64,000 nt of DNA from Octopus sinensis (lineage: Eukaryota): positions 22,568,001-22,632,000 of the forward strand of contig NC_043014.1 of the NCBI RefSeq assembly GCF_006345805.1. The letters run 5' to 3'. Every line of letters begins with the position of its first letter. Position 1 is the first letter of the stretch. The position numbers were made by a program, and so were the translations under genes. Below, one piece after another: positions 11,064 to 52,307 of this stretch. The notes under the pieces were generated by a model. It made no database searches. It saw only the letters and a list, made by a program, of their open reading frames with translations, and was not told the DNA's origin.

Positions 11064-11464
11064 ATATATAAGAAAATAGTAAAGTGTGAAAAAACGACAG
11101 AAGGCTTAAATGTTAAAAAATATATATATTTGTGTCAAAATGTCTGGAGAATATTGGAAAAATTTTTTTTTTTTTTTTTTCCCTTTCCTTAAAATGACAT
11201 AATTTTAAAATTTTTTAAAGAAATTACCGGTTTCGCGTGTAGCTTTTCAAATTTCTTGTGACGAACGTCACAAGAAATTTGAAAAGCTACACGCGAAACC
11301 GGTAATTTCTTTAAAAAATTTTAAAATTATGTCATTTTAAGGAAAGGGAAAAAAAAAAAAAAAAAAAAAAAAAATTTTTCCAATATTCTCCAGACATTTT
11401 GACACAAATATATATATTTTTTAACATTTAAGCCTTCTGTCGTTTTTTCACACTTTACTATTTT

Positions 11465-11473
<9 letters not shown>
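11064..11473. repeat. Near-perfect ~200-bp-arm fold-back palindrome between (TA)n tracts
   Basis: Arms are reverse complements apart from poly-T/A length; apex gtgacg-aa-cgtcac at 11258-11271. Confidence 0.95.
11272..11311 (+). ncRNA. Minimal type-I hammerhead, U3-A8 core variant (mirror copy on - strand ~11218-11257)
   Basis: aagaaat-TTGAAAA-gc tacac gc-GAAA-ccgg-TA-atttctt: 7-bp helix I, 2-bp helix II, palindromic ACCGGT helix III, GUA site. Confidence 0.7.
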
Positions 11474-11512
<39 letters not shown>

Positions 11513-11642
11513 TGTTAAAAGGTTGGGAGATGATGTACAGGTATTTTATATTAGAAGAAATGAGGTACTCAGAAATTCGGATGGTTTTATATTTACAAAT
11601 ATTTACATGCTTTTATACATCATATATTATATATCATATATC

Positions 11643-11721
11643 AGCGCTTTCGTCCATTCTAGTGGAGTTTTCAAATTGAACTGTTCAAGTAGAAAACTCC
11701 ACTAGAATGGACGAAAGCGCT
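11643..11721. repeat. 30-bp-arm inverted repeat carrying a hammerhead-like motif
   Basis: agcgctttcgtccattctagtggagttttc / gaaaactccactagaatggacgaaagcgct; motif TTGAAAA-c tcca ctagaa tgga c-GAAA-gcgc-T. Confidence 0.6.
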
Positions 11722-11896
11722 AATATATTCTTGACTGTTGTTGGTGGTGATGTAGGTGGCTGCTGAGGGTTTGTTTTGAAGAAGGAGGGTAGTATGAGTT
11801 GTTGTTGTCTTTATTGTTGTTGCTGCTGCTACTGATGTCTTATTGCTGTTATTGTTGTTAGTTAATGGTGGTGTAGTTAGTGATGTATTCAATGTT

Positions 11897-11928
<32 letters not shown>

Positions 11929-12099
11929 ACACATGCGCGCACACACACCTACATGTCTTAGATGGACATTTCAATTGTGTGGGAGTATCTGATAGGAGAG
12001 GGGGGATGCAAAAGCCTCACAAACCTGCTCAGATGTTTTCAATTGTCTGACAGGTACTGACTAGATTACCTGAATGTGCCAATGTGGACTTCGACAAAT

Positions 12100-13000
12100 C
12101 ACATCGGATCAACTAGATTGTATTTAGATAGAGTATTCTGTAGGCCAGCAGATAAAGATAGCATAGGTTGTCCATAATTTCACTTAGTCGGCTACATAGA
12201 CCACAAATTCATGATCTGTACGGTCCTGGTTACTGAAAGCTAAATATGTCATTACTGGCAAGCTTACAGAGACCAGATTAGCATTTTAGTTGATGGGCAC
12301 AGTCATCAACAACAACTGGTGGTTTGCTCTTAAAAGGGCAGTTAGAGTAGAATCAATTAGGTTTAGCAAGGCTTTAGCAGTAGAGAGAAATAGAATAGAG
12401 GGAGATTTCCTTAGAAATTTTCGATGAGGCGCTTAGGACAGGCATTGCAACTGACGTGTTGGCAGTGAGGTTGGCCCTCAATCAATTTTTCAATGTCAAG
12501 CACAAAGGCTGCATTGTTCACTAAGCAGGGAGTAAATGAAAGCCACCTGATGAGCCTGAGTAGCAGTGACAAAACATGACAACAAAGCCACTAGTTGGTC
12601 TTTGGTGGACCAGACCGGATGCGAGGTGTTCGAACTAAAACAGATGTGTGTGGCCTTTCAGCAGCATTTTGCTCGACTGTTCAGGATGAATGGTAGGACA
12701 GATAACAGGGCAGACTTTGGTGTCTACCTGGACAGCCTGCCACCACTCAGTGAGTGAAGCAGAGTGTTGCAAAAGGCCAATAACAGCTGCAGAGATACAG
12801 GAGGTGATGAAGAGCTGCACAAGAGACAGATCGCTGGGTTTAGATGGTCTGCTCTACAAGCTTTATATTTCAATGCCAGACTTGTTGGTGGGCCTCTTAG
12901 CAGACATCTACTGCAACTGGCAACGGAATGGGAGAATTCCCACTTTTGTCTGTCGATGGGTGGTGACACTGCTGAGAAAAGACCCAAACAAGAGTGGAAT
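12100..13000 (+). pseudogene. Degenerate L1/Tx1 ORF2 fragment
   Basis: ORF 12690-13019 SEAECCKRPITAAEIQEVM..SLGLDGLLYKLY..NWQRNGRIP..VVTLLRKDPNK parallels ORF 44538-46502. Confidence 0.85.
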
Positions 13001-13819
13001 TTGGTCATTCCATGTCTGATATTTTTTGGCCATAATTTCCACAGAGCACCCAATGGATAATTTTTGCCACATTGTCATGTCTTTTGTATTCACATTACGT
13101 CAATTTTGGGCATTCACTAACAATGTGCCACACTATTTTACCCCTCTCACCACACATTCTGCATTTGTCACTCTCGGTTGTTTTATCAATACTGCACTTC
13201 ATATAGTTTGTTATCAATGCCTGTTCTTGTCATTTCTTCTTTTGAGTTTTTTTTTGTTCTTTAAATTTTTCTTAACACAAGTTTCTTTCTTAACATCAGT
13301 TTTGATGATGCCAGACTTCTTTGTATGCATCAATAATGATTCCATGACATTTTTACACACTGTTTTCCTCTGATTCAGCACAATCCTGACAATTGATCAA
13401 ACCTCTCCCATCCTTTTTTTCTTGAAAAATACAACTGATCAGTGTCACTCTTGGGATGGAATACTCCATACAATGTCAATAATTTCCGTGTCTTCATATC
13501 TATACTCATTAGTTCATTCTTTTGCTAGCTTACAATTCCAGCTCCATACCAAAGTAATGCTATCACCTACGTATTTACTGTTTTGTCAGCATCATTATTA
13601 TTATTACATTTAACTTCTGTGGTATGAAGATGTTACCAAATGAAATTTTTATTGGATACTTGTAAAAACGACTACAGCTGTCTAAATGCCCTCAAAAGCC
13701 TCATATTATGCTCTACAACTAAATACTACAATGATACCGTCTCACCCCAAACAACACAAATCGAGGCACACAGCTGAATGTACAGGAAGAAGAAAATGAA
13801 CAAACAGTATAGTGAACAA

Positions 13820-14900
13820 TTCATCATCATCATCATCATTCATTTAGCGTCCGTTTTCCATGCTAGCATGGGTTGGACGGTTCAACTGGGGTCTGGGGAG
13901 CCCGAAGGCTGCACCAGGCCAGTCAGATCTGGCAGTGTTTCTACAGCTGGATGCCCTTCCTAACGCCAACCACTCCGAGAGTGTAGTGGGTGATTTTATG
14001 TGCCACCGACACAGGTGCCAGACGAGGCTGGCAAACGGCCACGCTCGGATGGTGTTTTTTATGTGCCACCGACACAGGTGCCAGACGAGGCTGGCAGACG
14101 GCCACGCTCGGATGGTGTTTTTATGTGCCACCGACACAGGTGCCAGATGAGGCTGGCGAACGGCCACGATCGGATGGTGTTTGTTACGTGCCCACAGCAC
14201 GGAGGCCAGTCGATGCGGTACTGGCTATGGTCACGTTCGGATGGTTTTCTTGTGTGCCACCGGCACTGGTACCACAAAGATACAAATTCCATTGATGTTC
14301 ATCTATTTTGATTTGTTTTGATTTGATTTGATTTGATTTTCACTTGCCTCAACAGGTCTTCACAGGTCTTCACAAGTGTCACAAGAAGGAAGGCTGGTAT
14401 GCACGGCCACGCTCGGATGGTGTTTTTATGTGCCACTGACACAGGTGCCAGATGAGGCTGGCGAACGGCCACGATCGGATGGTGTTTGTTACATGCCCAC
14501 AGCACGGAGGCCAGTCAATGCGGTACTGGCTACGGCCACGTTCGGATGGTTTTTTTGTGTGCCACAAAGATACAAATTCCATTGATGTTCATCTATTTTG
14601 ATTTGTTTTGATTGATTTTCACTTGCCTCAACAGGTCTTCACAAGTGTCACAAGAAGGAAGGTATGCACAGGTGGACTGACTACGTCCCAGGTAGGGGCC
14701 ACGGGTTATGGCCTGACTAGTCTTGCCGGGTATTCAGATGGTGTTTTTATGTGCCACCGACACAGGTGCCAGATGAGGCTGGCGAACGGCCACGGTCGGA
14801 TGGTGTTTGTTACTTGCCCACAGCATGGAGGCCAGTGGATGCGGTACTGGCTACCGCCACGTTCGGATGGTTTTCTTGTGTGCCACCATCACTGGTACCA
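13820..14900 (-). repeat. RTE-3'UTR/SINE-tail-related element with internal ~61-bp tandem units
   Basis: Repeated ggatggtgtttttatgtgccaccgacacaggtgccagacgaggctggc..cggccacgctc; similar units in the 3' region of the RTE at 58690-58900; (CAT)n tail. Confidence 0.75.
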
Positions 14901-15179
14901 CGAACAATTAATAGAAGAAAATGTCCCAAACGCATCTTTAAATGTATATTGTTATAATTATTGTTTTATCGTACTGTTTTTCTTTTTCTTTTTTATCTAT
15001 TTTCATGCAAGTATGTTGATTAGCCCTCATCTACTTTTGTGCCTGGTTAGATGCAGCCAGTCAATATCAACTTTGGAGCAGAATGCTACATTCAGTGTGA
15101 GTAGCTTTTCTCAATTTTGGTCTAGCCTCTGTAACTCCTTTTTCCTCCAACTGATAATATCTGCACCATACCTGAGTGG

Positions 15180-16100
15180 ATAACTATCGGACAAACAGTA
15201 CTGTGTTTGAAGGATGCTTTAAAAGGAAATGCCGTGGATAATTACAGACCCATTTCATGCCTCCCATTAACATGGAAGCTGCTCATTGGAATAATCACTG
15301 ATGAAATGTATACATATCTCAAGGATAACAGAATTCTAGTGGTTGAGCAGAAGGGCTGTAAACAGAACTGCAGGGAAAATAAAGACTAGCAGCTAAGAGA
15401 TAAAATGGCAATGAAAGAAATTTAGCAATAACCTAGACAGATTACCACAAGGCCTATGACATGATACCACATCAATGGATCATTGCATATTTGAATATGC
15501 TTTGGATTGCAAAGAATGTCAAGAGTTTTTTGAGAAAAGGCATTTTAAATTAGAAGACTAAGCTCATATCTTAAGAACAGAACCTAGAAACAAAGAATCA
15601 AGAGAGGAATTTTTCCAAGAGACAGCAGGTTTCCTTTACTGTTTGTTTTATGTGTGATTCCTTTAACATTGCTACTGAGCAAAAGTAACATCTGGATATC
15701 AGTTTAAAGGAAAATGTTAACAGATCAACCAGCTATTAGTTACGAATGATGTCAAGCTGTATAGTAAAGAGGAAGCTCAAATCAGTTCTTTAGTGTACAC
15801 AATCTATTGCTTTAGAAAGGACATCAAACTGGAATTTCACTTAAAAATATATGGAGCAATATTCCTGATGAGAGGGAAAGTCAAAAGATTTGAAGGTACA
15901 GAATTACCACCAGGAGAAGTCAAGAGAAGTATTTGTAATACTGGGTACAAATACCTGGGCATATTAGATGTGAACAAAGTGATGGAAGAAGAAGAAATGG
16001 AGAAAAGCTAAAGTATCTCTGAAGAGATAGATTAATGTTGTAGTCATAACTGAAGAGAAAAAATAAATTTCAAGCAATCAATACATGGGTGATTGGATTA
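15180..16100 (+). pseudogene. Degenerate R4/Dong-like non-LTR RT fragment
   Basis: [32 protein letters not shown]-like segment, GIFQxDS-like segment, YKYLGILD. Confidence 0.7.
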
Positions 16101-16141
16101 TTGAAGTTTATTACAGATATTATTATGATTATTATTATTAA

Positions 16142-16710
16142 GGTGGTGAGTTGGCAGAATCATTAGCACAGTGGGCAAAATGTTTAGTGGCATTTTGTCT
16201 GTTCTTATTTTCTAAGTTCAAATTCCACCAAGATTGACTTTTCTTTCATCCTTAGGGATCAATGAAATAAAGTACTAATCTAGTATCGGTGTTGATGTAA
16301 TCAACTTATCCCCTCCCTACAAATTACTAGTTTTGTGCCAAAATTTGAAACCATTATATTATTATTATTATTATTATTATTGAGTGAGAGAGCAAAGTGA
16401 CACTGGGGTACAATGACATGAAGCCCAATATAACCATCATGACTACCTGTGTGATAAGGGTATTATCATTATTATTATTATTATTATTATTATTTGGGTG
16501 TGAGCTGGCATATTATTAGCCCACTGGACAAGATGTTTAGCAATATTTCATTTGTTTTTATGTTCTGAGTTTAAATTCTGCCAAGGCTGACTTTGCCTTT
16601 CATCTTTTCGGGTTTGATGAAATAAGTACCAGTCAGGTATTGGGGTTGATGTAATCAACTAGCCACTTTATCTCCAAATTTCAGCCCTTGTGCCCATAGT
16701 GCAAAAGATT
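16142..16710 (+). mobile_element. Two SINE copies (ggtgagctggcagaatc...aaataagtaccag family)
   Basis: Same ~200-bp unit recurs at ~20473-20612 (+) and ~38715-39415, ~40660-40810 (-); B-box-like gagttcaaattc. Confidence 0.75.
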
Positions 16711-17168
16711 GTTGTTGTGTAATGGGTGTGTAGTTAAGAAGTTAGCTTCCCAACAACATGGTTGCCAAGTCTAATCCATGCTAATATGGAAAAAGGGCTG
16801 TAAAAACAAAGGAATTAAAAACAAAAAAAAATTAATCACATGCTTCCATGTCAATCCCACTCACTAAGCAACAGCAGCTATAATCCGAAAAGAAGAACAA
16901 GTCAACATCATCGATAACCACTGAGCCGCAGGTTTTATGTCGGAGTTATCCCAGTTACCTGAGTTACCTTCTCCTAGAAGGATGCCCTAACAAAGGCTAG
17001 GAGTCTTTCACTCCTAATGGTTTAACCGTGCGATCGGGTATTCAGTCCGATTATTTCTATGTCCCTGCGCATACATATATATATACATATATATATATAT
17101 GTATATATACATATATGTATATATATATGTATATATACATACATATATATATATACATACATACATAC

Positions 17169-18013
17169 AGGCTAAATTTGACGAATTTTTAATGCCTCCT
17201 TTATTCAGGAGCTGCTTGATGTATTGGTGAACAGCCAATAGTGTTGTACAGCATAACAATTAAAGCTGTAGTTGAGAAAAAGTTAGCTGACATGGAGGAC
17301 TGGAAGTTATCTGAATATTAGAAAACAGTTACCTGTATCAAGATGATTCCTGCTGGGCAACAAAATACTGACATCATGACTGCTGCTCAGTGCTTTGAAA
17401 ACATTCTGAAGGTTGTGAGACAAGACATTGACAGCTGCAACAGAGACTATGAAACAGGAAGGAACAAAGCAAAAGTTCTGACTGCATCCACTTGCCAAAA
17501 TTCATTCAACAACTGATGAACAGGACCTTAGACTCAATTTAGATGGTTATGTGAAACTACAAGAGACTGTGGTGAAATCTGGCTGGAGAAGGTTGCTGCC
17601 GGAAGCTCATGTATGTTGCAGCTTCTTGCCATAACTTCAGAAAGAGTCAGAAGTGGTTGTTGGATAATTTGTATGACTTCACCAGCCCTTATTTCTGGCC
17701 TCCTAATTCCCACAATTGTAATCTATGTGGGGCACAGTTGAGAAAGACACCAACCACTCTACTTGCAACACCAAGGTCGAGTTGGTGGCCAAGATCAAGA
17801 AGGAGTTTAGAGATCTTCCCAGGAACACAGTAAGGAATGCATGTTCCAGGTTCTGGAGCTGTCTTGATGCTGTGGTGGAAGCTGAGAGTGGCTACTTCAC
17901 ATAAACTGTTATCTTCTAACCATAATCTAGTTGATTTATTTTGATTTTTGGCATGAATATTGTATTTTATTTTCCTTTTGATGCAAACATTCAAATTAAG
18001 CCAGAACACCCTG
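17169..18013 (+). mobile_element. Degenerate Tc1/mariner (maT-like) element
   Basis: FWPPNS motif in ORF 17609-17833; terminus aagccagaacaccctgt; homologous to 36020-36805. Confidence 0.7.
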
Positions 18014-18642
18014 TGCACACATGCACACACATGCATGCATGCACACACATGCATGCATGCACACACACACGTACACACACGCACCCCCACACACATACAC
18101 ATGCATAATGGCAATTTCTGCATGCTTGAACACCCTCAAGTGGCTATGTAAACCAATCCTTGATACTGCAAGCCTTCTCTTTCAGCTTGCAGTTTGTAAT
18201 TTATAAAGGGAGAGTCAGTCTGTGCAACCTGATCCCTCTCTTTAGACTTGAAGGTCTGATCATAAGGGCTCAGCAAGCTGAAATGGCTATGCTGACCAGC
18301 AAGCAGTAGTGACCTTATAAGGTTGGAGAGCTCCACCTAACCTGGAGTTGCTGGAAGAGTGTCAATGAGGGCACTGAACCAGTTGGGGGACTCCACTTCT
18401 TGATTTGCTATCAAGGTTGATCCCGCTAGCCTTTTCCTTTCCCCTGGCACTCACAAGGCAGTGAGGGTTTGTACTTGGAGTTTCTTCCATATCATGCTAA
18501 TTTAACCTCTAGCTGGGACTTTGACAGGTGCTACTGTTCCAGGTCAGAGTAGATCTGGAAATAATAGGGGCTAAAAAGTGGTTCCACATTCCGAAAAACC
18601 CTGAAACTCCCACATAAGTTGCAGGTTAAAGTCATGTCTCGG

Positions 18643-18701
<59 letters not shown>

Positions 18702-18722
18702 ATGTGTATGTATACATATATA

Positions 18723-18762
<40 letters not shown>

Positions 18763-18835
18763 CCGGAGTAAACACATAAATGTGAAACAAGGTGGAAAAA
18801 AGAGTACTCAAATACCAGTGGTAGAGTAATATGCT

Positions 18836-18981
18836 TTATTTAAAGCAGCAGAAAATTCAACAAAATCTGTTACTCTGAGTTTCTCGTTGCCGTTCATCAG
18901 CTAGCAAAAACTGTCTGATGAATGGCAACGAGAAACTCAGAGTAACAGATTTTGTTGAATTTTCTGCTGCTTTAAATAAAG
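18836..18981. repeat. Fold-back palindrome (~65-bp arms) between (TA)n tracts
   Basis: tttatttaaagcagcagaaaattcaacaaaatctgttactctgagtttctcgttgccgttcatcag and its reverse complement with one mismatch. Confidence 0.95.
18905..18954 (+). ncRNA. Minimal type-I hammerhead ribozyme
   Basis: caaaaactgt-CTGATGA-a yg gcaa cg a-GAAA-ctcagag-TA-acagattttg: canonical core, palindromic ACTC-A-GAGT helix III, GUA site, ~9-bp helix I. Confidence 0.75.
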
Positions 18982-19326
18982 TATATATATATATATATAT
19001 TAAGGTTAATGAAATTGTCTTGCCCCTTCTATAAAATTTCAGGACTATTATTATTGTCAATCTACTTCATTTTGGTTAATATATAAAGGATTGAAGTAAC
19101 TCCTCCAGAAGATATAGAGTCAAAATTAAAAGAAGAATACCATTGTCATCTAGTGAATGATATTTCAATCCTTTCTATATTAACCAAAATGAAGTAGATT
19201 GACAAAATTATTTTTTGAACTTGTTGAAGACACACAAGATGTTGAAATATCGTTCACTAGATAACGATGGCACTCTTATTTTAATTTTGACTATATTTTC
19301 TGGAGGAGTTACCTCAATCCTTTATA

Positions 19327-19357
<31 letters not shown>

Positions 19358-19910
19358 GAGTGAGAGAGCAGTGCATGCCATCAAAGTGACACTGGGGTAA
19401 AATATATGAAGCCCAGTATACCCATCATGACTACCCGTCTGTTAAGGGTACGCCAGGCACATGCATCACAGCTATATGTGCACGACATGGTGATCTCATA
19501 TCAAGACAAACAGCACATGACCTCGCAGGTGGGGCCCAGTTAGAATTTTCTTCTGGCCGAGTAACCCATCCCACTCAAAAGGTCCTTGAATAAGGGTTGT
19601 TTAAGGATGTTGAATGAAACACCCATGTTTCCAGAGGTGAATTATTCAAGCCCCAAAGAATCCCTCTCAACACATGGCTATGATGCTCCCCCACTACTTC
19701 TGCTCATGATCAGAGATGCACATATCATCAGCCACTAAGGGACATGCTCAACTGGTTAAAGTCAAACAACTGACAAGCAAATCTGTGGTATGGAGCAGAA
19801 TATTTGCTGTAGCCCATCTTTTATACCAAGACAAAACAATGTACATGATAACACTTCCAATCAGTTAAGATCAGAAGCCATGAGAGCCACTGCCTGGTAC
19901 TGCATCAGGG
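19358..19910 (-). mobile_element. ~550-bp dispersed repeat (SINE-like) with (AAT)n tail
   Basis: Second copy at ~21565-22083 and partial copy at 16382-16462. Confidence 0.75.
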
Positions 19911-19942
19911 TATTCCTCCCCCTCTCCTCCTCCCTCCTCCTC

Positions 19943-19998
<56 letters not shown>

Positions 19999-20021
19999 AA
20001 TGATGAAGATGATGATGATGA

Positions 20022-20066
<45 letters not shown>

Positions 20067-20649
20067 TAATAATTTACCTTTAGAAGTTGAAATATGTTAC
20101 AAACATATTTTAACTAACCTAAAGTTCATTTATTCCTGTGTGGTGCTGATACAGCTGTTTTTATTCCAACCAGGCAGTCTAACAGCACAACTCAATCACT
20201 ATTGGTGATTGTTTTTAGATAAAGCTATAGCTTTAAATCTTCCCAGAGTTACTTTTCTTCAGTATTTCCCACCAAGGAAGGCTAAAGAGCCAGAAACGTC
20301 ATATCTGAGAATCTGATAGTGGGAACCACTGGACAGATATAGTGTTTTTCACCTTTGAGCATAAGAGAGAATTTTTCTTCATGGTAAATACAGTGAATTT
20401 GCCTTTAGAAGTTGCAATATGTCACAAACATATTTTAACAAGCCTAAAGTTTGATCACTGTCATTATTATTAAGGCAGTGAGCTGGCAGAATTGTTAGCA
20501 TGCCAGATAAAATGCTTAGTGGCATTTCTTCTGGCTTTATGATCTAAAATCAAATTCTGCCGAGATCAATTTTGCCATTCATCATTTCAGGGTCGATAAA
20601 ATAAAGTATCAGTCAAATACTAATAAATAATGGAAGTCTGTCGGGGTTC

Positions 20650-21450: not shown

Positions 21451-21529
21451 CCAGTCAAGCACTAGGGTCAATGTAATTGACTTACCTCATTCCCACAGAA
21501 TTTCAGGCCTTGTGCCTATTGAAGAAGGG

Positions 21530-30280: not shown

Positions 30281-30749
30281 CAGGGCTATTCAAAAAGAAC
30301 GAACCGATTTCATTACACAATATTTTAATAAGAAAAAGCAATAGAAAACTCCAGCTAAGTCACAAGTATTTACTCACAATCAACTTTTATTTCCTGTCTT
30401 ATAAGTGTTCAATACGGCCACCACCTGCAGCATGGGTAACATCAATGCGATAAGAGAATTCCTCCCAGACGCGTATCAGCATATCACAATCCACTGAGTT
30501 GATCACTGTTGTTATTCAATGTTTAAGCTCATCAAGGTTAGTGGATTGCAGTGGAACATAAATGCAATCCACTAACCTTGATGAGCTTAAACATTGAATA
30601 ACAACAGTGATCAACTCAGTGGATTGTGATATGCTGATATGCTTCTGGGAGGAATTCTCTTATCACATTGATATTACCCGTGCTGCAGGGAGTGGCCACA
30701 TTAAATACTTGTAAGATATGAAATAAAAGTTGATTGTGAGTAAATACTT
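30281..30749. mobile_element. Fold-back element made of two inverted copies of a Tc1/mariner transposase 3' end; right end truncated by RTE
   Basis: Arms ~30364-30549 / 30564-30749; + arm reads TNLDELKH*ITTVINSVDCDML..WEEFSYHIDITRAAGSGHIKYL*; left end cagggctattcaaaaagaac after TA. Confidence 0.8.
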
Positions 30750-33142
30750 GGTCACCTAGGTAGCGGAGGCTATCAACTACTTCTAGTTTGTCTCCCTGGA
30801 ACGTGGTAGAAGTTGGTCTCTGCACATTTCCAGTGTTTATTGCTCCTGAGCATCTGCCACAGACAAAAACTATTTTCCTAGTTAGCCTTCCTTTGACATT
30901 GCTGCACCTCTTATGTGTCCATAGCTTACACTTGGTGCACCTTATAGAGTTTCTACCTACACCTTTTTTTACAGATCGAGCGGGGCCATCTACCTGAAGT
31001 CGTTTGTGATTGGTCTACCTTCCTAATTATTAGGACTTTGGTTTTGACTAGGTTGATTCTAAGGCCCTTCGATTCTAATCCTTGTTTCCACACCTGAAAC
31101 TTCTCCTCCAGTTCTGATAGTGACTCAGCAATTAGAGCACGGTCATCAGCATAGAAGAGCTCCCAGGGGCATCCTGTCTTGAATTCCTCTGTTATTGCCT
31201 GGAGGACTATGATAAATAGGAGGGGACTGAGGACTGAACCTTGGTGGACCCCCAACCTCTACCCGGAATTCTTCACTGTACTCGTTGCCAACCCTCACCT
31301 TACTAGCAGCGTCTCTGTACATGGCTCGCACAGCTCTCACTAACCATTCATCTATCCCTAGTTTCCTCATTGACCACCAGATAAGGGATCGGGGGACCCT
31401 GTCAAAGGCTTTCTCCATGTCAACAAAAGCCAGGTTCAGGGGCTTATCTTTGGCTAGGTATTTCTCCTGCAGCTGTCTTACCAGGAAAATAGCATCAGTA
31501 GTACTTTTCCCTGGCACGAACCCAAATTGCATCTTATCTAAGCTAACTCTCTCTCTAATTAATTGGGCTATAACCCTCTCCGTAACCTTCATTATCTGAT
31601 CCAGCAGCTTGATACCCCTGTAGTTATTTGTATCTAGGGCGTCACCTTTACCTTTGTAGCAGTTGACTATTATGCTGCTACACCAGTCATTGGGTATGAC
31701 TCCTTCGTGTATCACCTGGTTAACTATACGGGTGACTAGGCTATAGCCGACACTACCAGATATTTTGAGCATCTCTGCAGTAATTCCTGATGGGCCTGGG
31801 GCTTTCCCTGTTTTCATGCTTGTAATTGCCTTAACTACTAAGGAACTGTTAACTCGGATTGCTGGTCCCTCTGTTGGGTCGACATTCAGCAGACTCTCTT
31901 TATCCCATTTATTTTCTTCATTCAGCAACCTTTCATAGTGGCGTCTCCAAGCCTCTCTCTTTGCATCCTCATTTAGCGCAAGTGAACCGTCATCCTTGCA
32001 AACACATTTCTCTCCTACCACGTCACGATTCTCTCTCACACACTGTCTTGCAACATGAAATACCTCAAGTCTTTCATCCTCACGGCGCAGAACATTGTCA
32101 AATTTTTTCTTATCTGCTTCCCCTCTGGCTAGATAGACCTGTCTCCTAGCTTCCCTTCTGGCAGTCTGATACACTTCCCTGCTATCACCGTTCTTCCAGT
32201 CCTTCCAAGCCTGTTTCTTTTGTCTAATAGCCCTGTCAACAATATTGTTCCACCACCACGTTATTTTGGGTCTTAAGGGGACTTTGCACCAGCCACAGAT
32301 CTGGTCAGTGGCTTTCAGCAGGTTGTCCCTCAGAAGCGTCCAGTTGTCTTCTACCCCATGTGTAGCTATACCCCCTTCCATTTCGTCAAAGGCTTCAAGT
32401 AACATGTCTCTAAATCTCTGTCCATTCACAGGGTCTTTAAGCTTCCAGACCTTTCTTCTCCATGTTGGTCGTCTTCTAGTCGTCCTCTTAGTCCTGATCC
32501 TAAAGTCACTAACTACCAGTCTATGTTGTGGGGTGCATTCTTCGCCTGGGAAGGTTTTGGCATTTATAAGCAGCCATCTTTCCCTTTTTCTGGCAAGGAT
32601 GTAGTCGATTTGGCTAGTATGCCGGCCTGATCAGTAGGTGACCAGGTGGCTTGTCGGTTTCCTGAAGTTAGTGTTGCAAACCATAAGACTATTCGCATCG
32701 CAGAACTCCAGCAGCCTGGTTCCCTCCTCGTTGCAGGAACCATAACCGTAGCCTCCATGTACGCCATGGAAGACCCCAGCATGTCGTCCAATATGCCCAT
32801 TGAAGTCACCAGCCACAAAGAGAAGGTCCCTGTCGTTCGTCAATGAGGTGGTCTGCAGTAGGGTGTCATAGAAACTGTCTTTCTGTCCATCGGGTAGCCC
32901 TGGCTGAGGGGCATAGGCCGATATAATGGTTGCTAATCAATGATGAAGCACTATTCTAATCTTAAGTATTCTGTCACATACTCTGATTACCTCAATTACT
33001 TTATCTACCCATTTCTCAGCGATAAGTATACCCACGCCACCAACCCCGTCAGTATTCCCTGCCCAGAAAATCTTGTACCTGTGTTCCTTGCCTGTGAGGA
33101 ACCTAGCAGATCCTCCTCTCCACCTTATTTCTTGCATGCAAC
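30750..33142 (-). mobile_element. RTE-clade LINE (APE + RT), truncated at both ends
   Basis: QEIRWRG, VAGDFNGH, NYRGIKLL, FVDMEKAFDRV, GVHQGSVLSPLLF, YADD. Confidence 0.95.
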
Positions 33143-33621
33143 ATATTCCTCGTTAGATGGGACACTGGTATGTTGCAGGATTACTATTGCCAGCTGAGTG
33201 GACTGGAGTAACCAAGAACACAACATAGTACCCAGTCACTGAATCAAAACCACAATCTTATGATCAGAAGTGTAACACTCTGACCACTAAGCCATGCACT
33301 TCTACTCACACACACACACACACACACATACAGGTTTGTTTACATGGAGGTGTATGCATGTATGCATGTAAGTGTGTTTGTGTGTACCGTTGTCTTGATG
33401 TCATGGTTGTAAAAGAACCTCACCATCATACTAACAATGTTGTTCGTTTCTAGTCTTCAATGAAAAATATGTCTGGCCATAGGGAAATGTTACTTTGCTC
33501 GGAAACAGCTGAGAGTTGGTGACAGGAAGGTCTGCCTCAACAAATTCTATTTGGTACATGCAACCATGGAAAAGTGGATGTTAAATGATGATATATATAC
33601 AAATATACAAATATATATATT

Positions 33622-43294: not shown

Positions 43295-43396
43295 TAATCT
43301 GATGGGTGGCTATATTTATATCGAAGTGATTTTACTACTATTAATTTTTTTACTATAAAACATTTCTTAAATATAGCCACAAAACACATGTCGTTA
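43295..43396 (+). ncRNA. Decayed inverted copy of the long-stem-II hammerhead
   Basis: CTGATGG-gtggctatat...atatagccac-AAAA-cacatg-TC-gtta; core substitutions relative to the 41199-41302 copy. Confidence 0.6.
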
Positions 43397-43652
43397 TTCT
43401 ACCTAATATATACGTTATTATTATTATTATTTTACAATAATAAATCTCTGAACGAGATATAAACAGTAACCGCTCGACAACGTAAGGTGTATTAGCCATC
43501 TGAATGTGGCTAGCCACTGGGGGTGGGGTGGGGTGTTACTGATGCTTTTAGCCCCAGGCGATCAACGTCACCAGAAGGACTTTAGACACTATCTCAGTGC
43601 CCTTGTGTTATTTGCAAAGGGAGGTCATCCTCCCTCGAAGACCCGAGTACTA

Positions 43653-43697
43653 CATACGGACTATAGTTTCAAGGTAATTGCCTCTCGTCAACGCATG
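43653..43697 (-). ncRNA. Minimal type-I hammerhead ribozyme
   Basis: catgcg-TTGACGA-gagg caatta cctt-GAAA-ctatag-TC-cgtatg; palindromic ACTATAGT helix III, GUC site, position 3 is U instead of C. Confidence 0.75.
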
Positions 43698-44051
43698 GTA
43701 AGCACCGGTCTTCGATGAAATTTTCTTTATTATGATCAATAGATCTAACATAGAATGGGTACATTACAGGACAAAACAATTACAAAAATGCTATGCGAGT
43801 TTGAATGAAATTTAAAAATTACAAAAATTACAAAATTAAAATTTTATGTCACTTGAACGAAAACTTGGCTTACTTTTGCCTTTATCACGAGAACTTTTAG
43901 TGCGTATGTTTTCTTTTCATTTCTTTTTTATTATTATTAATTCTTTATTTTAAACAGTTATGTACAGTGAAAGGTAATGGGAGGTACCAGTTTCAATTTT
44001 GAACCCGGCAGCCTATAAATCCCAGCAGCTGATTTTTCCGTTCCTCGATGA

Positions 44052-47000
44052 TTAAGCTGGGTTACTCTCACCCACCTTTCTCATCACATCCTTCCAACGT
44101 TCCATATACTCTTTCTGTGGCAAGCTCCTCTTCTCCAACCCCATCTTGCTCTTCAGATGATATCCGAAGTATTTTAACAAACCGGGGCCAGAGATAAAGG
44201 ACCCTTTCACTAGACCTTCCACTCTAGTTCTCCATACACACTCTTTCAATACTGCCACCGTACAGTAAAAACAAGCCTTACCTTCCTTTGAGAGTCCAGT
44301 TGGCGGTATCATCTTAATCATAGATCCAGCCGACAGCTGTACTCATCCCTGATGCGACAACACGTGTTCCACGTAACTTATCAAGCCTGACAGCTCCCGA
44401 CATTGTACAAAAGCGTGTTGGACGGTTTCATCGTCCAACCCACATCTTGGACACGTCGGTGGCACTGACATTCCGTGCCTGGATAACTTCTCGCGAACAG
44501 GTAATGCATTCCTATAGCACTGCCAGGTCAGGGATTTTTAGTAATTATCCAAATACCCCGGCCTGAAAGTCTTCTTAAACAGGTTGGAGAGTTGATCCTC
44601 ATCGAACCCCAGAGCCCTTCCTAGGACGTCGTCATTTTTTCCTCCTACCAGCCCTTTATAGAACACCGAGGTGGTATTCCCGCTGCCGGCCTTACCCATC
44701 TTGTGGATCAGCCAGAGTGCCTGTCGGCACTCCTTCTGCCATGAAGTCAGTTTACGTCCTTTAATGAGACCGGGTGTAAATCCCTCCATAGAGGCCGGTC
44801 GCGGGAAGAATTCCTCTGCCAGCGAACTCCACACCTTATCATCCTCCAGGTAACACCAGAGGTGTCTCAGCCTCAACGCGTGTTTGCGCATCATTAGCCA
44901 AGGCATCCCCAGTCCACCCTTTAGCGGTTCCTGGCAACACACGGAGCGTCTCACAAGTGGCTTTCCTCCTTTCCACAAAAAGCGGAAAAGGAGTCGTTCC
45001 AACTTGTTTAACCACGAATCGGGGCAAGGCACGACGGTCAGGCGGTAGGTGACGACAGAGGCTATAAACATCTGTGCCACCTCCGCCCTCCCTTTCAAGG
45101 AAAGATGCCTTCCGGACCACTTCCGTACTATGGCATCTACCTTGCTCGTTACCTCGCTCCAATTCTTCTCCGTCTGGGAGTCTGGACCAAACCAGACTCC
45201 TAGCAATTTAACAGGACCATCCGTCCAGTGTCCAACAACACTGGACGGTATCTGCTTGTTCCTCCAGGTGCCGAGGCGCAAACCGATGGACTTGTCCCTG
45301 TTAACTTTTGCCCCTGCCACCGCTTCGTATCTATGGAGAGCACCTACTACCCGAGGTAGCTGTGTTCCGTTGGACACGATGAGGGTGACGTCATCCGCAT
45401 AGGCAGAAACAGGCTTACCGCATCCGATTTCATTAGGGTTGCCTCCCAACTTCTCCAGCTTCCGCAGCAATGGCTCAAGAGCCAAAACATACAGGAGCGG
45501 GGACAAGGGGCACCCTTGACGAACTGAACGCTTGATCGAAAACGGCTCCGTTAGGTAACCGTTTATCTGGACTGTGGACTTGATGCCGCTGTACATAGCT
45601 GAGATCCACCCGCAGAAGCCAGGGCCCAGCCCAGCCGCTTCGAGATTCGCCGCCAAGTACCGATGGTCTACCCTATCAAACGCTTTACTTTGGTCTAAAT
45701 GGACCAATGCCCCTCCTTTGCCGTCTAATTTCCCGACCCTATCTATAGTGTAGCGGAGAAGGTGAAGATTATCCTGGATCGATCTGCCTGGGATTGCACA
45801 TGTCTGTGCCTTCCCGACAAGTTTCTCCACGACAGCCGTCAACCTTTTTGCTAACACCTTGGCTAAAATCTTAAACTCTACATTAAGTAGAGTCATGGGC
45901 CTGTAATTACTAATACTGTCCCCCTTGCTTGGGTCTTTCTGGACCAGCGTCACAACTCCCCGACTCACAGAGCTGGGAATCCTCCCATTCTGTTGCCAGT
46001 TTGCATAGACGCTTGCCAGTATGTCCCCGAACAAGTCCGGCATACAACAATAAAATTTATAGGGTAGACCATCCAATCCCGGCGACTTTTCCCCAGCGCA
46101 CTCGGCCATAACCCCTCTTACCTCTGCGGGAGAGATCGATCCTTCACAGCACTCCGCCTCACCTGCCGAGAGCCGAGGCCCACCAGCTAGGAAGTCCTTT
46201 AAGGTCTCCCCACGCTCGAGCGGACCACCGCCCCCAAACAGCCGTGCGTAATGCTGGCGAAGGACCTTCTGCATCTCCCACTGTCCATAGATCTTGCGGT
46301 CCTGCTCGTCAGTTAAGGACATAATACAGGACTTTTTGCCCTTCTGACTCTCCTCACGACGGGCCCATCCGGCAACGTTAATACCTTCTCGTTTTCCTGC
46401 ACGTAACTTAGCTCTGACTCTACACCCCTCGTGCTTGGCGTTGAGGTGACGGTACAATACCGCTCTCGCTGCCAACACTCCGGATGCACAGCCAGATTCC
46501 ATAGCCTCGTCTAAGTTCTTAACTAATTCGCCCTCTATTCTAGTCCTATCTAAACTTAGCTACTTGCTAAATCTAATGGACTCCAAACGGATGGCTCTTT
46601 TGAGGGCGAGCCACCATCTATTATTAATGATGGTGCCACATAATGCCCTCTGTACTAATTCCTTAATCCGGGTACGGAAAGCTTCACAGGTCAAAATAGA
46701 CTTGTTCATCTTCCAGTACCCGGGACCTTGTCTATGGCATTTATCTACATGTACCTCACACGTTACAAGTTTGTGATCCGTGTAAGGCACAACAGAGAAT
46801 TGTGGACAGCTAACACTATTCCTATCTCGTTCCTTAACAAATACTCTATCTATGTACGATCTGTGTGAGCCGTCGTTATTACTCCACGTCCACTGTGGAA
46901 CGTTCGGCTCATCCAGTCGAAAACGGTCTACTAGATTAAAGCTCGCTAGTAGAGCCTTGAGGCCAGGATTCCCCTTCCTATCGCTCGAGCCTACACCATC

Positions 47001-47441
47001 CACCCGCGCATCGAGAATGGTGTTGAAATCCCCTACCAAGACTACCGTTTTGGACGTCACTAGAAAGTGCTCCAGTTCCCGATAAAAACCGGTCTGCCCA
47101 CGTCCGTTAGGAGCGTAGACAGCCACCAACCTGAAGGACTGCTTACTCACGTGCGTCACATCTAGGACAACCAGCCTACCTTCTGGGTCCAAAAAGACAG
47201 TACTTACCTGTAAGTCCAAGTTCTTCCTGAAAAGAACTGCCACGCCTGCACCTCCCCCTCGGCTAGGAGAAATAAATTTCTCGTAACCATTGAGAAGTGG
47301 TGAGAACGCTTGGGGTCCCTTCATCTTGGACTCGGTAACAATAGCTACTTCGATTCTATGTGAAATGAGGTCGTCACGAAAACAAGCCTGTTTCCATTTC
47401 GATCCCATTCCACGCACATTTATACAACCTAACTTAATCAT
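44052..47441 (-). pseudogene. Tx1 ORF2: APE endonuclease, RT and C-terminal Zn finger; three in-frame stops, no frameshift
   Basis: CINVRG, VYAPN, VGDFN, SYIDRV, TDHK; KSPGLDG, LDQSKAFDRV, VRQGCPLSP, YADD; CPRC..ETVQHAFVQC; ORFs 46560-47441, 44538-46502 and 44052-44321 share one frame. Confidence 0.93.
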
Positions 47442-47460
47442 CGAGAAAAAAGAAAATTAT

Positions 47461-48969
47461 TTACTCACGGTTGCGAGAGGGAGCCTGACAGATTCTTTCT
47501 GCCTGTCTCCCCCCACTCGCCGTTGCTGTTGGGTGTTTCACCGGCGTTGCCACCGGGCTCTGGGTTGGTGTGGCTGCCGGGCTAACGGGTAATTTCCCAG
47601 TTGTCACCTCCTGGGTGACATCCTTAATGAAGCCGGCTTTTACGTGGCTTTGTAAGGTTTTGTCTTTCCATCCTTCTTCGCCGACCCTTCCATATCGCCA
47701 CTCCGCTTCCTTCTCGGTCGCTTTGTAGCACCTGATCAGCGTCCTTGCTTTCACCCATGTTTCTACTCTCACGTTCTTTGTGGTGTATGCAATAATTTTT
47801 TCGTTGGGTTTAAACCCTTTTACAGTTGGGGGGTGGGGTTTGTTAAAGTGCTGGCCTATAAGTGTAGTACCGCCGGGGTGGGATTGGAGAATATTTTTAA
47901 TTTGTTCGTCTGCGTTGTTTTTTTTTTTTATACGGGTGGGGAGTCAGGGGTGATGGATTTTTTCCTTTTGTTGGACACGTTCGTAAATTCCATGTCTTCT
48001 TGTTTATTTGTTTTTGTTGCATTATTTTCCTCATCCTTTCCTTTCTCATTTTGCATTTCGTTCTTGTCTTCCTCCTTTTTGGAGTTCGACCTGTTATTTT
48101 TTCCTCCTTGTTTTCGCCAGCCGTTACTTTTTTCTCCACTTTGCTGCTTTCTGCGTTCTTCACAGCGTTTTGTGGGGGGGCGTTGCCCGCATTATTTTTT
48201 TTGTGCAAACGGAGCGAACGTGGCCCTTTTGCCCGCACTTAAAACATCTGGGCCTGCGTCCTTCCACCGAAACTCGTATGGAGTGCCCCTCCCCCACGAA
48301 GACTCTGTCTGGTAGGCTTTCCAACGTCGCATTTTCCGCCTGGATTATCATCTCCAGCTGCTGGCCTCTCCAGTGTTTTGCAATTTTTCTCTTCATACTT
48401 AAAATTGTCAATTTTGATTCAACATCAAAAATGACCGCTGTTGCCGCCCACATCACGTCGTAGCCCGTTGGTATATCTTCTAGGGTCACTTTTGCGGTTC
48501 TGCATCCTAAATATAAGGGTAGCAGTATTATACTCTCGTTTTTCAACGTTTGTGTCGAAATTTGCCTTGCTACTTCCGCCGTTTCAAAATGCGCCTCCAC
48601 TGTAGCGCTTCTTGCACCTCGGTTGACATGACTAACTTTACTCCATATTGGAGCCATACACTTTTCGACCATTTCGTTTTTCACGTCGGTCATTCGTTTT
48701 TCCTTGATATTGTACACCCTGTAGGTGACCATTTTTTCCTTTATTGCTTGTATAGTTTCGGGGGGCGGTACCAATCGTGTTTCTTCGCCACTTTTTTGCA
48801 CCAGCGATCTAAACTTGAATAATCTTTCCATTGATACCTCCATTTCTTCGACTTCGCCACCTACGGCGTCTGAAAAACTGGGTTTTGTCTGTGTTTCCTT
48901 TTGTTTAACAGTTGTTATACTTTCTCCCATCTCGGGAAAGTCTTTTTTTGAACTTAAGTCTAATTCCAT
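47461..48969 (-). pseudogene. Tx1 ORF1 (gag-like, CCHC zinc knuckle), frameshifted
   Basis: RPRCFKCGQKGHVRSVC knuckle, followed by a K/E-rich tail broken at homopolymer runs. Confidence 0.85.
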
Positions 48970-50161
48970 ATTAGACAACACAAACTTGTCACAAATGACA
49001 AGAGAATTTTTTTTTTTCCAAAAATAACCTATACAGGTTAAGAGTTCACACAAAACAGCACACAGAAATTTTCTACCCCGAAGGGCGAAAATTACTGGGT
49101 CAAAAACAGTTCAACAATGATATTACTTGTAACACGACAGAGTAGACAAACGGAAACGAACTCACACAACGATTTGCAGCAACAGAAAAATATTGGTATA
49201 CTCAGAGGAAAAATTAAAAAAACACCGGTCTTCGATGAAGGAGTCCCCTTGCAAATAAATATATAACGTTTTTCACAGCAACCACTGTCACTGATTTAGA
49301 AAAACTGTCTGAAAACAATAATAAATCTCTGAACGAGATATAAACAGTAACCGCTCGACAACGTAAGGTGTATTAGCCATCTGAATGTGGCTAGCCACTG
49401 GGGGGGGGGGGGTACTGATGCTTTTAGCCCCAGGCGATCACAGTGGTTGCTGTGAAAAACGTTATATATTTATTTGCAAGGGGACTCCTTCATCTCTCTG
49501 CTCCTTACCACTCTCTGTTCTTCCCATATGACTGGTACTTGACCAAGCATGATCTTTCTTGGCCTGACCACCACTCACACAACACCTTGTTTTCCTGTTT
49601 CCTGACTTTCATATTTGTAACCGCAAGGCTTCCACTTCACACGTCAGTTTAATTTAACTTGTCCTTTTAGTCAAAAGACACCTGTAGTTATTCTTGTTGT
49701 TTGTATTTGTAATCATATAACATTTTCTCTGTTTTCTCATTGTTTTTGTCCATGTTGTCATTCGCTTCCTTTCTTCCAAAAATTTAATGCCCTTAACTTA
49801 GATTTTTGGGACCTACCAATTTTGAACAGTCTCAAGTGTAACAGGCCAAAACTATAATGATTGGAAGCTTGACTGATGAATAGAAAGCCATGAATATTCC
49901 ATCCTGGTTTTCCTGTCTGTTTTTGTATCGTCCATCTGTCTGTATGTTTTCACTGTCATCTGTTATGTTCTTGTTCCATTTATATATATATATATATATT
50001 TGTTTATGTATTCGTTTTGCAAGATTCTTGATGTGAACTCATGTGTTGAAACAGATATTGTATTTGGGGAGGGTTATGTTGCCAGTTTAGCCAATGAAAA
50101 CACACACACTATTCATTCAGTGTTCGCTTGCTTCAGTTTTATTTCATATTAATTATATTTT

Positions 50162-50206
50162 GGCCAGAGTTCTTTCATCACACTCCCATGACCTCATCAG
50201 TGGTCC
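50162..50206 (-). ncRNA. Minimal hammerhead ribozyme downstream of PLE GIY-YIG fragment
   Basis: ggacca-CTGATGA-g gtcat gggagt gtgat-GAAA-gaac-TC-tggcc. Confidence 0.65.
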
Positions 50207-50492
50207 TTTGCTTTCTTCTTTCTTTTTTGTGTCTCCCCTTCCTAACAATCTGCCATTTTGTGTTCCTATTGTATGTGTCTTTATTTGCACATGCTTATAT
50301 CCCTGTATGTGTCTATGTTTGGTAAGTGTGTGTGTGGGGGAATGTGTATGGTACCTGCATAATTAATATCTCTTGTTTATTCATGTTCATTTTATTTTAT
50401 TTTATTTATTTTATTTATTTGTTTTGCTCATGTATTTAATTACTTAATTTCATTTATTTATCTATCTATTGTATTAGTTTTATATTATTAGT

Positions 50493-50960
50493 TTATGGGG
50501 ATCTTATTCTGTCATCAGGTTGTGGTGTGTATGTGTGGGAGGGATGAGTGCAAGTGTTCCATTCTAGTTTTCTATTTAGACTAGGTTTATCTTCTATTAT
50601 GTGTGTGACTTCTGTAATTTGTCTAAGTGTTGTGCCTGTTCTATGTGTAGACAAGATTTTTACTTCTATGTTGTTGAGTGAGCCCCCGTGTTCCTGCTTG
50701 GCATGTTGGTATAGTATTGATGAACTCTTCTCTTCCTTGAGTTCCCTCCAGTGCTCATTAACCGTCTTTCCTAAACTACATGCTGTCTTGCTTACGTATG
50801 TTGTTGTCTTGTTTCTGCACTGTCTCTCAGTACATCTTATTCTATAGACTATGTTCCTAGCTTTACAGTTTGTTTGTGGGCTAACTCTACACACCACACA
50901 GTTCTTATCAGTAAAGGGATTCTATTAAAAGGGTGGGTTCTACCGAATAGGGATTTAATA
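50493..50960 (-). pseudogene. Penelope-like GIY-YIG endonuclease fragment
   Basis: CVVC..NCKARNIVYRIRC..C..TYVSKT..VNEH..ILYQHAKQEH..LRQITE..PSLNRKLEW. Confidence 0.85.
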
Positions 50961-52123
50961 GGGTTACCTAATCTTTCTACAACCACTTTCCGTGTTGGCA
51001 TGGGCAAAACAGTTTGACTGGAACAGGTAAGCAGGAGAGCTGCACTAGGTTCAAATCTGATTTGGTGTGATTTCTATGGCTGGATGCTATTCCTAATGCC
51101 ATCCACTCCAAGAGTGCAATAGGTACTTTTTACATCCCACTGGCATGGGTGCCATTTACATGATGGCATTAATGGCTATGATTACGATTTCATAGGTGCC
51201 ATTTAAATGGCACTGGAAATGGCCGCAACTACGATTTCACCTGGCTTAACAAGCCTTCTCAAGCACAGCATATTGCCAATGGTCTCAGTCACTTGTCATC
51301 GTTCCCATGAGGCCCAACATTTGAAGATTATGCTACTGGCTACAAGATTATACACAATAAAGACGAGAAGAGATGATTAGGATATGATTGCTTAAGTAGA
51401 GGTGGAGTAGGAGCCATTACAGTTGCTGTAGGAAGACAGAAAGATGAAACTGTGTGCTTGTGGATCTGAGGCTGGAACATTTCTGTGAGTGGCTTTATAA
51501 CAATCTGCTAGAAAGCTCATTTCTGAAAGTGATCTAGGAATGTTGGTGTGTGCAGCAATGACACCATATTGGGTGAGAGAGCAATGCTCTATTGTGGGTC
51601 CTGGGCTCATCAGAACATTGATAACTGTTGGGGGCTGAAGTATCTTCTGGTCTTGAAGATGACAGCCAGTCATTGGGTTACAGTCCTAGATATGTTAAAG
51701 ATAAGTTTTCACTGAGAGACCCAGTAATAGACCCAACAACTGGAGTGAGTGTGAGGGCTCTAGCTGAGTGTGGCTCCTGATTAAGAGAAATGTAGTGTGA
51801 TAATGTTTCTCTCTCAATATATATGATTGATTGATTGATTCTAGTTTCAGCTTATGAGCTGTGGCCATGCTGGGGCACCGCCATATTATATATTTATGTA
51901 TTCATGCATGCATGTATATATGTATGTATGTGTGTGTGTATATATATATATATATGAGTATATGTAAATATATATATATATTTATGTGTATATATATATG
52001 TGTGTGTATGTATATGTGTATATATGTCTGAATGGGCATATATATATATATATATTGATAGAAATGGTAAGACAACAAAAGAATGAAAGAGACCTTGATA
52101 TTATGTAAATAGAGGAATTTATC

Positions 52124-52307
52124 TGTAAATGTAATATGTGACAATCATTCGGTAACCATGATAAAACTCCGAGTTTTGGATGTCAGGACGGAAATCCACA
52201 CTCCCATCTCTTTAACTGAAGAGATGGTGGTATGGATTTCCGCCCCGATATCCGAAACTCGGAGTTTTATCATGGCTACCGAATAATTGTCACATATTAC
52301 ATTTACA
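52124..52307. repeat. Diverged fold-back palindrome with hammerhead-like motif at apex
   Basis: ~88-bp arms; + strand taa-CTGAAGA(52216)-gatgg...atcc-GAAA-ctcggag-TT-tta. Confidence 0.75.

What the first reader, a model, noticed from the sequence alone, without database searches (positions are those of the whole stretch)
11064..52307. Shared architecture: four unrelated fold-back palindromes all turn around just upstream of a hammerhead core
Seen: palindromes at 11064-11473, 11643-11721, 18836-18981 and 52124-52307 differ in sequence. In each, the apex lies about 3-14 nt 5' of a CUGANGA/UUGAAAA-type core, so both strands carry an HHR motif facing outward. All lie in or next to (TA)n tracts, with extra unique sequence on the left arm only. 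Known: PLEs carry minimal HHRs and often have inverted partial terminal repeats. Inference: the inversion point is set by the ribozyme's 5' boundary rather than its cleavage site. That implies cDNA made from uncleaved or religated RNA that stalls and snaps back at the ribozyme, a mechanistic signature of PLE integration.
Basis: partly seen in the sequence, partly recalled or inferred. Interest (0 to 1): 0.75.

Follow-up and report, generated by a model that had tools for sequence, protein, structure and literature searches.

The report
Back-to-back Penelope retroelement end insertions
The four mirror-image stretches are real but are ordinary dead insertions of four Penelope-like jumping genes, a shape already described; their joints pile up just before the ribozyme in three of the four families, likely because the copied RNA begins there rather than because the ribozyme makes the copying enzyme turn back.

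Summary
All four palindromes are real. Each is a 5'-truncated insertion of a different endonuclease-positive Penelope-like element (PLE), with the published inverted pLTR plus tail. Only palindrome 1 has an intact hammerhead (HHR) on both strands. In 276 tail-anchored copies, 162 have an inverted arm. The farther arm end lies 3-14 nt before the HHR core in only 37 of 162 (1/52, 6/21, 23/50, 7/39); in family 1, 41 of 52 lie over 100 nt away. A pile-up 0-40 nt before the core is real in families 2-4, with family-specific edges near -9, -17 and -26. Copies without an inversion stop there too, and long copies mostly run through the same ribozyme (10 of 12), so stalling and snap-back fits poorly. 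Most likely two cDNAs, primed from both target strands at the two tail ends on uncleaved RNA, are joined head-to-head, and the edge marks the template's 5' end. A transcription start is plausible but unproven; my subfamily test was not significant. Earlier notes of this scan reached the twin-priming reading on other DNA.

The parts
11030..11263 (-). Family 1 tail-bearing arm (element -13 to +207; 0 = first base of HHR core)
   Evidence: blastn to read-through copy L324
11030..11063 (-). Family 1 tail (between the two fixed 3' ends, +173 and about +209)
   Evidence: runs into the ORF start in 5' pLTR copies
11264..11473 (+). Family 1 tail-less arm (-15 to +173)
11272..11311 (+). Type I minimal HHR, U3-A8 core at 11279-11285, 7-bp helix I, palindromic helix III
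11218..11257 (-). Mirror copy of the same HHR, core 11250-11244
11515..11682 (-). Family 2 tail-bearing arm (about -8 to +163); tail 11515-11550; core 11674-11668; cleavage position mutated to G
11682..11728 (+). Family 2 tail-less arm, core mutated (11690-11696), broken off at +38
18763..18900 (-). Family 3 tail-bearing arm (0 to +136); tail 18763-18835; core 18900-18894 without 5' helix-I strand
18901..18981 (+). Family 3 tail-less arm (-14 to about +71) with complete minimal HHR, core 18915-18921
52054..52212 (-). Family 4 tail-bearing arm (+3 to +161); tail about 52054-52123; core destroyed by the junction
52213..52307 (+). Family 4 tail-less arm (-3 to about +98) with HHR, core 52216-52222

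Best explanation
The four palindromes are short insertions of four Penelope-like retroelement families, each made of two back-to-back copies of the element's hammerhead-bearing end, likely produced as two cDNAs primed from the two cut target strands and joined at their far ends, which likely pile up just before the ribozyme because short template RNAs begin there. Shown: family identity and structure; fixed outer ends of the two arms; varied inner ends; shared subfamily letters on both arms; (TA)n targets. Inferred: (1) the endonuclease cuts both strands of a (TA)n tract; (2) each 3' end primes reverse transcription at one of two sites 33-66 nt apart, which gives the tail; (3) both cDNAs copy the same or a sister uncleaved RNA; (4) their 3' ends are joined head-to-head, often over 1-12 nt of microhomology; (5) on short templates both run off the RNA's 5' end, 2-26 nt before the core. 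That end is most likely the pLTR transcription start (about 45%), or an end trimmed or spliced back to helix I (about 30%). My odds: PLE identity 0.97, two-cDNA joining 0.65, edge = template end 0.75.
For: Parents: tail-anchored copies run upstream into RT and GIY-YIG-type ORFs (Pfam RVT_1 for the family-1 ORF). The tail-less arm has a fixed outer end: +173 in 37/45, +131 in 10/17, +71 in 35/50, +98 or +117 in 22/40, matching the two RT start sites shown in vitro, with both strands cut and extended (PMC11167929). Inner ends vary: 52/52, 21/21, 45/50 and 38/39 junctions are distinct, so insertions form one by one. The tail-less arm is longer by over 30 nt in 44 copies and the tail arm in 30; 21 of 41 long family-1 pairs differ by over 500 nt, and in 4 family-3 copies the tail arm barely overlaps the other arm or not at all. 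Arms share diagnostic letters: 552/585, 180/203, 180/187, 349/452 against 412, 113, 104, 278 by random pairing. Arms ending in [-40,0): 25/45, 62/80, 46/61 in families 2-4 against 4/20, 4/18, 1/15 in the next 40 nt (p 0.014, 2e-5, 1e-6). Copies without inversion end there too (9/47, 7/19, 12/30). Two full-length family-3 elements start at -16 and -17, the same edge, while 10 of 12 run through (p 8e-5 against the 62/80 stop rate). An initiator-like YYANWYY sits at -17 in 5/5 family-3 references; a TATA box sits at -34 to -40 in 7/7 family-2 references, with initiator-like matches at -3 (7/7) and -8 (2/7).
Against: 10 of 41 long family-1 junctions are near-symmetric (within 40 nt) against 1.7 expected (0 of 5000 shuffles); fold-back predicts this too. 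Unequal arms could also come from later deletions at the centre of a perfect palindrome; I could not exclude that. Identical arms are equally predicted by fold-back. For a transcription start: the family-2 subfamily test (TATA 5 nt closer to the core) gave no significant shift of arm ends (p 0.17 and 0.51); family 1 has no initiator match and no clear edge (10/101; p 0.09); the family-2 and family-4 edges move with the end-calling rule (-9 or -15; -38 or -26); only 2 of 12 long family-3 arms stop at the edge, so long templates mostly start farther upstream. The edges also lie within a few nt of the predicted 5' end of extended helix I (-17 in family 3, -23 in one of two family-4 copies), so position alone does not separate promoter from ribozyme boundary. 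No RNA 5' ends could be read.
Confidence: 0.6

Rival explanations
1. One reading: one cDNA stalls at the ribozyme's 5' boundary, folds back on a micro-palindrome and copies itself.
For: Pile-ups coincide with the extended helix-I boundary in families 3 and 4; common apices sit on 4-nt palindromes 12 nt before the core in families 1 and 3; arms share variants; self-priming was proposed in PMC3846280.
Against: Family 1, with the strongest plain helix I, lets 91 of 101 arms through; 10 of 12 long family-3 arms pass; non-inverted copies stop at the same place; a tail cannot be copied from a tail-less strand, yet the tail-less arm is often longer; an RT reaching the 5' strand has already unwound helix I (inference); helix-I-guided junctions are 1 of 50.
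Confidence: 0.15
2. One cDNA folds back wherever it ends (template end or break), giving a perfect palindrome that later loses part of one arm by central deletion; the ribozyme plays no part.
For: Excess of near-symmetric junctions far from the HHR (10 of 41); microhomology at junctions; central deletion of long palindromes is general knowledge (recalled).
Against: Does not explain why the second arm stops at one fixed site that is an RT start in vitro (PMC11167929); needs deletions over 500 nt in about half of long family-1 copies, while symmetric arms over 1 kb persist.
Confidence: 0.2
3. A few palindromic master elements are transcribed whole and copied as non-autonomous units.
For: Similarity-ranked hits share one apex in families 1 and 3.
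Against: Those hits were selected by the query. In tail-anchored samples 156 of 162 junctions are distinct, and arms match within each subfamily.
Confidence: 0.03
4. Assembly or amplification artefacts.
For: No listed contig bridged the window's own apices; raw long reads were not available.
Against: Fixed outer ends, arm-specific decay mutations, and head-to-head joints of family 3 at many positions in contigs of DNA runs from two studies and two organisms.
Confidence: 0.02

Closest known systems
EN+ PLE insertions with inverted pLTR and tail, e.g. Pen2a_Av (Arkhipova et al. 2013, PMC3846280; passages and Discussion seen) and the general scheme in Craig et al. 2021 (PMC8557442; passages seen)
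   Same: Head-to-head inverted 5'-truncated copy, 30-40 nt tail on one end, palindromes at the inverted junction, microsatellite targets.
   Different: That paper reads the palindromes as self-priming on an antisense template; the unequal arms here favour two cDNAs. Tails in families 3 and 4 reach 45-66 nt.
PAc (Poseidon) in vitro mechanism (Frangieh et al. 2024, PMC11167929; main text seen)
   Same: Two RT start sites define the tail; both target strands are cut and extended; unprocessed RNA is the dominant template; the pLTR runs into the ORF start.
   Different: It does not address how inverted ends are joined. Both family-1 start sites lie at TATAT-like sequence that could pair with a (TA)n target, whereas PAc starts without homology.
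Minimal PLE hammerheads (Cervera and de la Pena 2014, PMC4209133; Results and Discussion seen)
   Same: Type I minimal HHR, palindromic helix III, U3-A8 core variant, pairs of motifs on opposite strands 100-700 bp apart.
   Different: Junction positions relative to the core are not mapped in the parts I read. It notes that the D. virilis intron ends at the 5' end of helix I, which bears on the edge found here.
L1 twin priming (recalled, no call)
   Same: Both target strands prime cDNA; ends are joined by microhomology; an inversion results.
   Different: In L1 the two cDNAs cover different parts of the RNA; here both start at the same end and overlap, which gives a palindrome.

Membership tests
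EN+ Penelope-like element | Single ORF with RT followed by C-terminal GIY-YIG endonuclease | tested here: met
   Family 1: 837-aa frame with RVT_1 above cut-off and a C-terminal EN-like part by eye. Families 2-4: RT and EN fragments upstream, recognised by recalled motifs; the family-3 frame had no Pfam hit.
EN+ Penelope-like element | pLTR: 3' end repeated before the ORF in partial tandem | tested here: met
   Family 1: 46 genomic pLTR-ORF junctions. Family 3: 12 of 25 long loci. Not seen for families 2 and 4, where no copy reached the ORF start.
EN+ Penelope-like element | Inverted truncated copy with tail on one end | tested here: met
   162 of 276 copies; fixed outer ends.
EN+ Penelope-like element | HHR within the pLTR | tested here: met
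Neptune/Nematis-type PLE clade | CX2-5CxxC linker between RT and EN; (TA)n targeting | tested here: inconclusive
   Linker present in family 1 and a decayed form in family 2; families 3 and 4 have a different cysteine pattern. No tree was built.
Type I minimal hammerhead ribozyme | Core with 3-8 pair, helices I-III, UH cleavage site | tested here: met
   Cores are C3-G8 in families 3 and 4, mostly U3-A8 in family 1, mixed in family 2; many family-3 copies carry U4C and many family-2 copies U3.G8. Met for 4 of the 8 window arms.
Type I minimal hammerhead ribozyme | Self-cleavage activity | not testable with these tools
   Needs an in vitro assay.
Non-LTR retrozyme | Tandem ORF-less units, each with an HHR | tested here: not met
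   Window copies are single head-to-head pairs of ORF-linked families; definition from bioRxiv 10.64898/2026.07.22.740005 (part 1 of 5 seen).
MITE / fold-back DNA transposon | Equal terminal inverted repeats with a fixed internal structure | tested here: not met
   Ends are unequal by a fixed tail and centres vary copy by copy.

The most novel reading that the evidence does not exclude
PLEs insert by priming two cDNAs on one uncleaved RNA from both target strands, and each family makes a short pLTR RNA whose 5' end is set within a few nucleotides of the hammerhead's helix I (a promoter, splice acceptor or protected end tied to the ribozyme). Junction pile-ups would then map PLE RNA 5' ends from DNA alone and give the ribozyme a role at the RNA's 5' end that does not need cleavage.
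Probability: 0.35. Interest if true: 0.6.

Novelty: new member of a known kind. Interest (0 to 1): 0.36.

Why it matters
The shape is known, so the four loci are ordinary. What the copies add is a measured map of junctions. How PLEs form inverted ends and what their hammerhead does are open questions (PMC11167929, PMC8557442). The data give sharp predictions: RNA 5' ends near -2 to -9, -17 and -20 to -35 in three families, and both target strands extended at one insertion. Both can be tested with 5'-end sequencing and the existing in vitro assay.

Tried and rejected
Rfam scan: no hammerhead among the best 150 matches, only microsatellite and hairpin noise. Similarity-ranked searches suggested one fixed apex per family; rejected as query bias once tail-anchored samples were read. 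Subfamily test of the promoter idea: TATA spacing does track the subfamily (11/14 at 34-35 nt against 10/11 at 38-40 nt), but arm ends did not differ significantly; a split by core variant looked better by eye but was after the fact and is not used. Arm ends at the cleavage site: 3/122, 3/119 and 3/108 within 2 nt, no excess; 10/89 in family 2 is confounded by TA-like sequence there and shrank on trimming. Target-site duplications: one convincing case (L139) among 142 copies, because targets are (TA)n. Sequencing runs: no RNA holder listed and only contigs, so no RNA ends could be read; no listed contig bridged the window's own apices. A cap-derived extra base before the edge was looked for by eye and not found. 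First end-calling over-extended through helix-I self-similarity and A/T runs; fixed, and both callings are reported. Pfam gave no hit for the fifth palindrome's short frame or for three other PLE-like frames in the window.

Full report
Observation. A scan for hairpin palindromes outside simple repeats found five in the window: the four named and one at 30363-30750. In the four, the apex lies 14, 8, 7 and about 3 nt before an HHR-like core. A complete type I minimal hammerhead is present on both strands only in palindrome 1, on one strand in palindromes 3 and 4, and on neither in palindrome 2. The motif score alone is not decisive for 3 and 4 (reached in 7 of 20 shuffles), but the core is conserved across each family. 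Positions below count from the first base of the core (0); negative is upstream.

What they are. Each palindrome belongs to a large family in this 2.7-Gb animal genome: exact tail motifs occur 447, 430, 3966 and 576 times. Copies that extend upstream run into a 3' UTR and a reverse transcriptase-endonuclease frame; the family-1 frame of 837 aa hits Pfam RVT_1. In families 1 and 3 the same end recurs before the ORF, as a pLTR. These are EN+ Penelope-like elements. The inverted truncated copy with a tail on one end is their published structure (PMC8557442, passages; PMC3846280, passages and Discussion). Palindromes at the inverted junction are described in PMC3846280, and paired minimal HHRs on opposite strands in PMC4209133 (parts 1-2 of 4).

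The test. Similarity searches favour copies like the query, so I anchored on the tail, which says nothing about the junction. I took 70 copies per family in genome order (the first 30, then 40 of the next listed places, skipping a few close neighbours) and dropped 4 of 280 as tandem duplicates or the same insertion counted twice. Three family-3 ends were corrected by eye for (TA)n over-extension. Of 276 copies, 162 have an adjacent inverted arm (52/70, 21/68, 50/69, 39/69); short or diverged inverted arms can be missed, most likely in family 2. The farther of the two inner ends lies in -14 to -3 in 1/52, 6/21, 23/50 and 7/39 (37 of 162; 29 of 162 with untrimmed calling). In family 1, 41 of 52 lie beyond -100, spread through the ORF. 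The four window copies look alike partly because only short insertions show up as compact hairpins.

The pile-up is real in three families. Of arms that reach the core, 25/45, 62/80 and 46/61 end within the next 40 nt in families 2-4, against 4/20, 4/18 and 1/15 in the 40 nt after that and 23/68, 28/108 and 24/85 in the 40 nt before; family 1 shows 10/101. The edge is -17 in family 3 under both callings, -9 or -15 in family 2 and -26 or -38 in family 4. Arms rarely end at the cleavage site and mostly span it, in line with unprocessed RNA being the dominant template in vitro (PMC11167929, main text).

Why not stall and snap-back. Copies with no inversion end at the same place (9/47, 7/19, 12/30), so the stop does not need a fold-back. 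Among long family-3 copies that reach a 5' pLTR, 10 of 12 run through the same ribozyme and 2 start at -16 and -17; a structural stall at the 62/80 rate would rarely allow that (p 8e-5). In family 1, 13 of 30 such copies run beyond -120 and 10 end between -57 and +47 (by eye). An RT arriving at the 5' strand of helix I has already displaced its partner (inference). The simplest reading is two classes of template: short RNAs that begin just before the HHR, and long tandem RNAs.

How the two arms arise. The tail-less arm has a fixed outer end (+173 in 37/45, +131 in 10/17, +71 in 35/50, +98 or +117 in 22/40), as expected if both tail ends are RT start sites and both strands are primed (PMC11167929). 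Inner ends are nearly all different (156 of 162 distinct). Either arm can be much the longer (44 against 30 by over 30 nt). Junctions show 1-12 nt of overlap in 25/52 and 27/50 cases in families 1 and 3. Both arms carry the same subfamily letters far above chance, so they come from one RNA or one source locus. This fits two cDNAs joined head-to-head. Against it, 10 of 41 long family-1 junctions are near-symmetric (1.7 expected). That suits fold-back, or two cDNAs running off one broken RNA. Later central deletion remains a live alternative for unequal arms.

What sets the RNA's 5' end. For a promoter: an initiator-like motif at -17 in 5/5 family-3 references, at -32 to -34 in 5/5 family-4 references, and a TATA box at -34 to -40 with initiator-like matches at -3 or -8 in family 2; D. 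virilis Penelope has an internal pLTR promoter with initiator (PMC2377424, passages). Against: the subfamily test was not significant, and family 1 has no match. For a ribozyme-linked end: folding puts the 5' end of an extended helix I at -17 in family 3 and -23 in one family-4 copy. An AG also lies at -12/-11, -24/-23, -8/-7 and -6/-5 in families 3, 4, 2 and 1 (sequences), recalling the D. virilis intron that ends at helix I (PMC4209133); but arm ends run past the AG and no shared upstream exon was seen. DNA alone cannot separate these.

Artefact check. Contigs of DNA runs from two studies and two coded organisms hold head-to-head joints of family 3 at many positions, several ending at -14 (15 of 37 joints shown). 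None listed bridged the window's own apices, so the four loci are not confirmed individually.

Novelty. Searches found no paper mapping junctions against the HHR or proposing twin priming for PLEs. The library lacks most subscription papers (Arkhipova 2006 and Evgen'ev and Arkhipova 2005 were not seen), and no supplements were read; they may bear on this. Earlier notes of this scan report the twin-primed reading in other genomes and in this one. I had reached it before looking, and they are not independent support. Verdict: real, ordinary in kind, with a modest mechanistic lead.

Noticed in passing
window 30281-30750: Fifth palindrome, 188-bp arms with a 12-nt spacer and no HHR. It belongs to a multi-copy family in which many copies have the second inverted arm. 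The arm translates to a stop-broken frame resembling a Tc1/mariner transposase C-terminus (recalled resemblance, no Pfam hit), so it is likely a fold-back MITE whose right end is cut by a LINE.
   Followed up: partly
window 7549-9791 (+): Frameshifted PLE ORF with RVT_1 and weak GIY-YIG hits and a CX4CxxC linker; related to but distinct from family 1; no HHR found after it.
   Followed up: partly
window 53174-54898 (-) and 50493-50921 (-): Two more PLE-like ORF fragments by eye; no Pfam hit.
   Followed up: no
window 44538-49110 (-): Long LINE-like element with RT, endonuclease and an upstream zinc-knuckle ORF, apparently little decayed.
   Followed up: no
window 30746-33143, 55413-58201, 59260-61454: Three related LINE copies in mixed orientation that form the long inverted repeats I1-I8.
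   Followed up: no
L154 and family 1: Both fixed 3' ends of family 1 lie at TATAT-like sequence in the element, which could pair with a nicked (TA)n target.
   Followed up: partly
L139: Family-4 insertion flanked by a direct repeat of at least 27 bp, a possible long target-site duplication.
   Followed up: no
L422, L430: Family-1 variant with short palindromes whose two arms both carry the tail region.
   Followed up: no
family 3 loci: About a third of held family-3 HHRs carry U4C, and a minor cluster of arm ends lies at -23 to -46.
   Followed up: no
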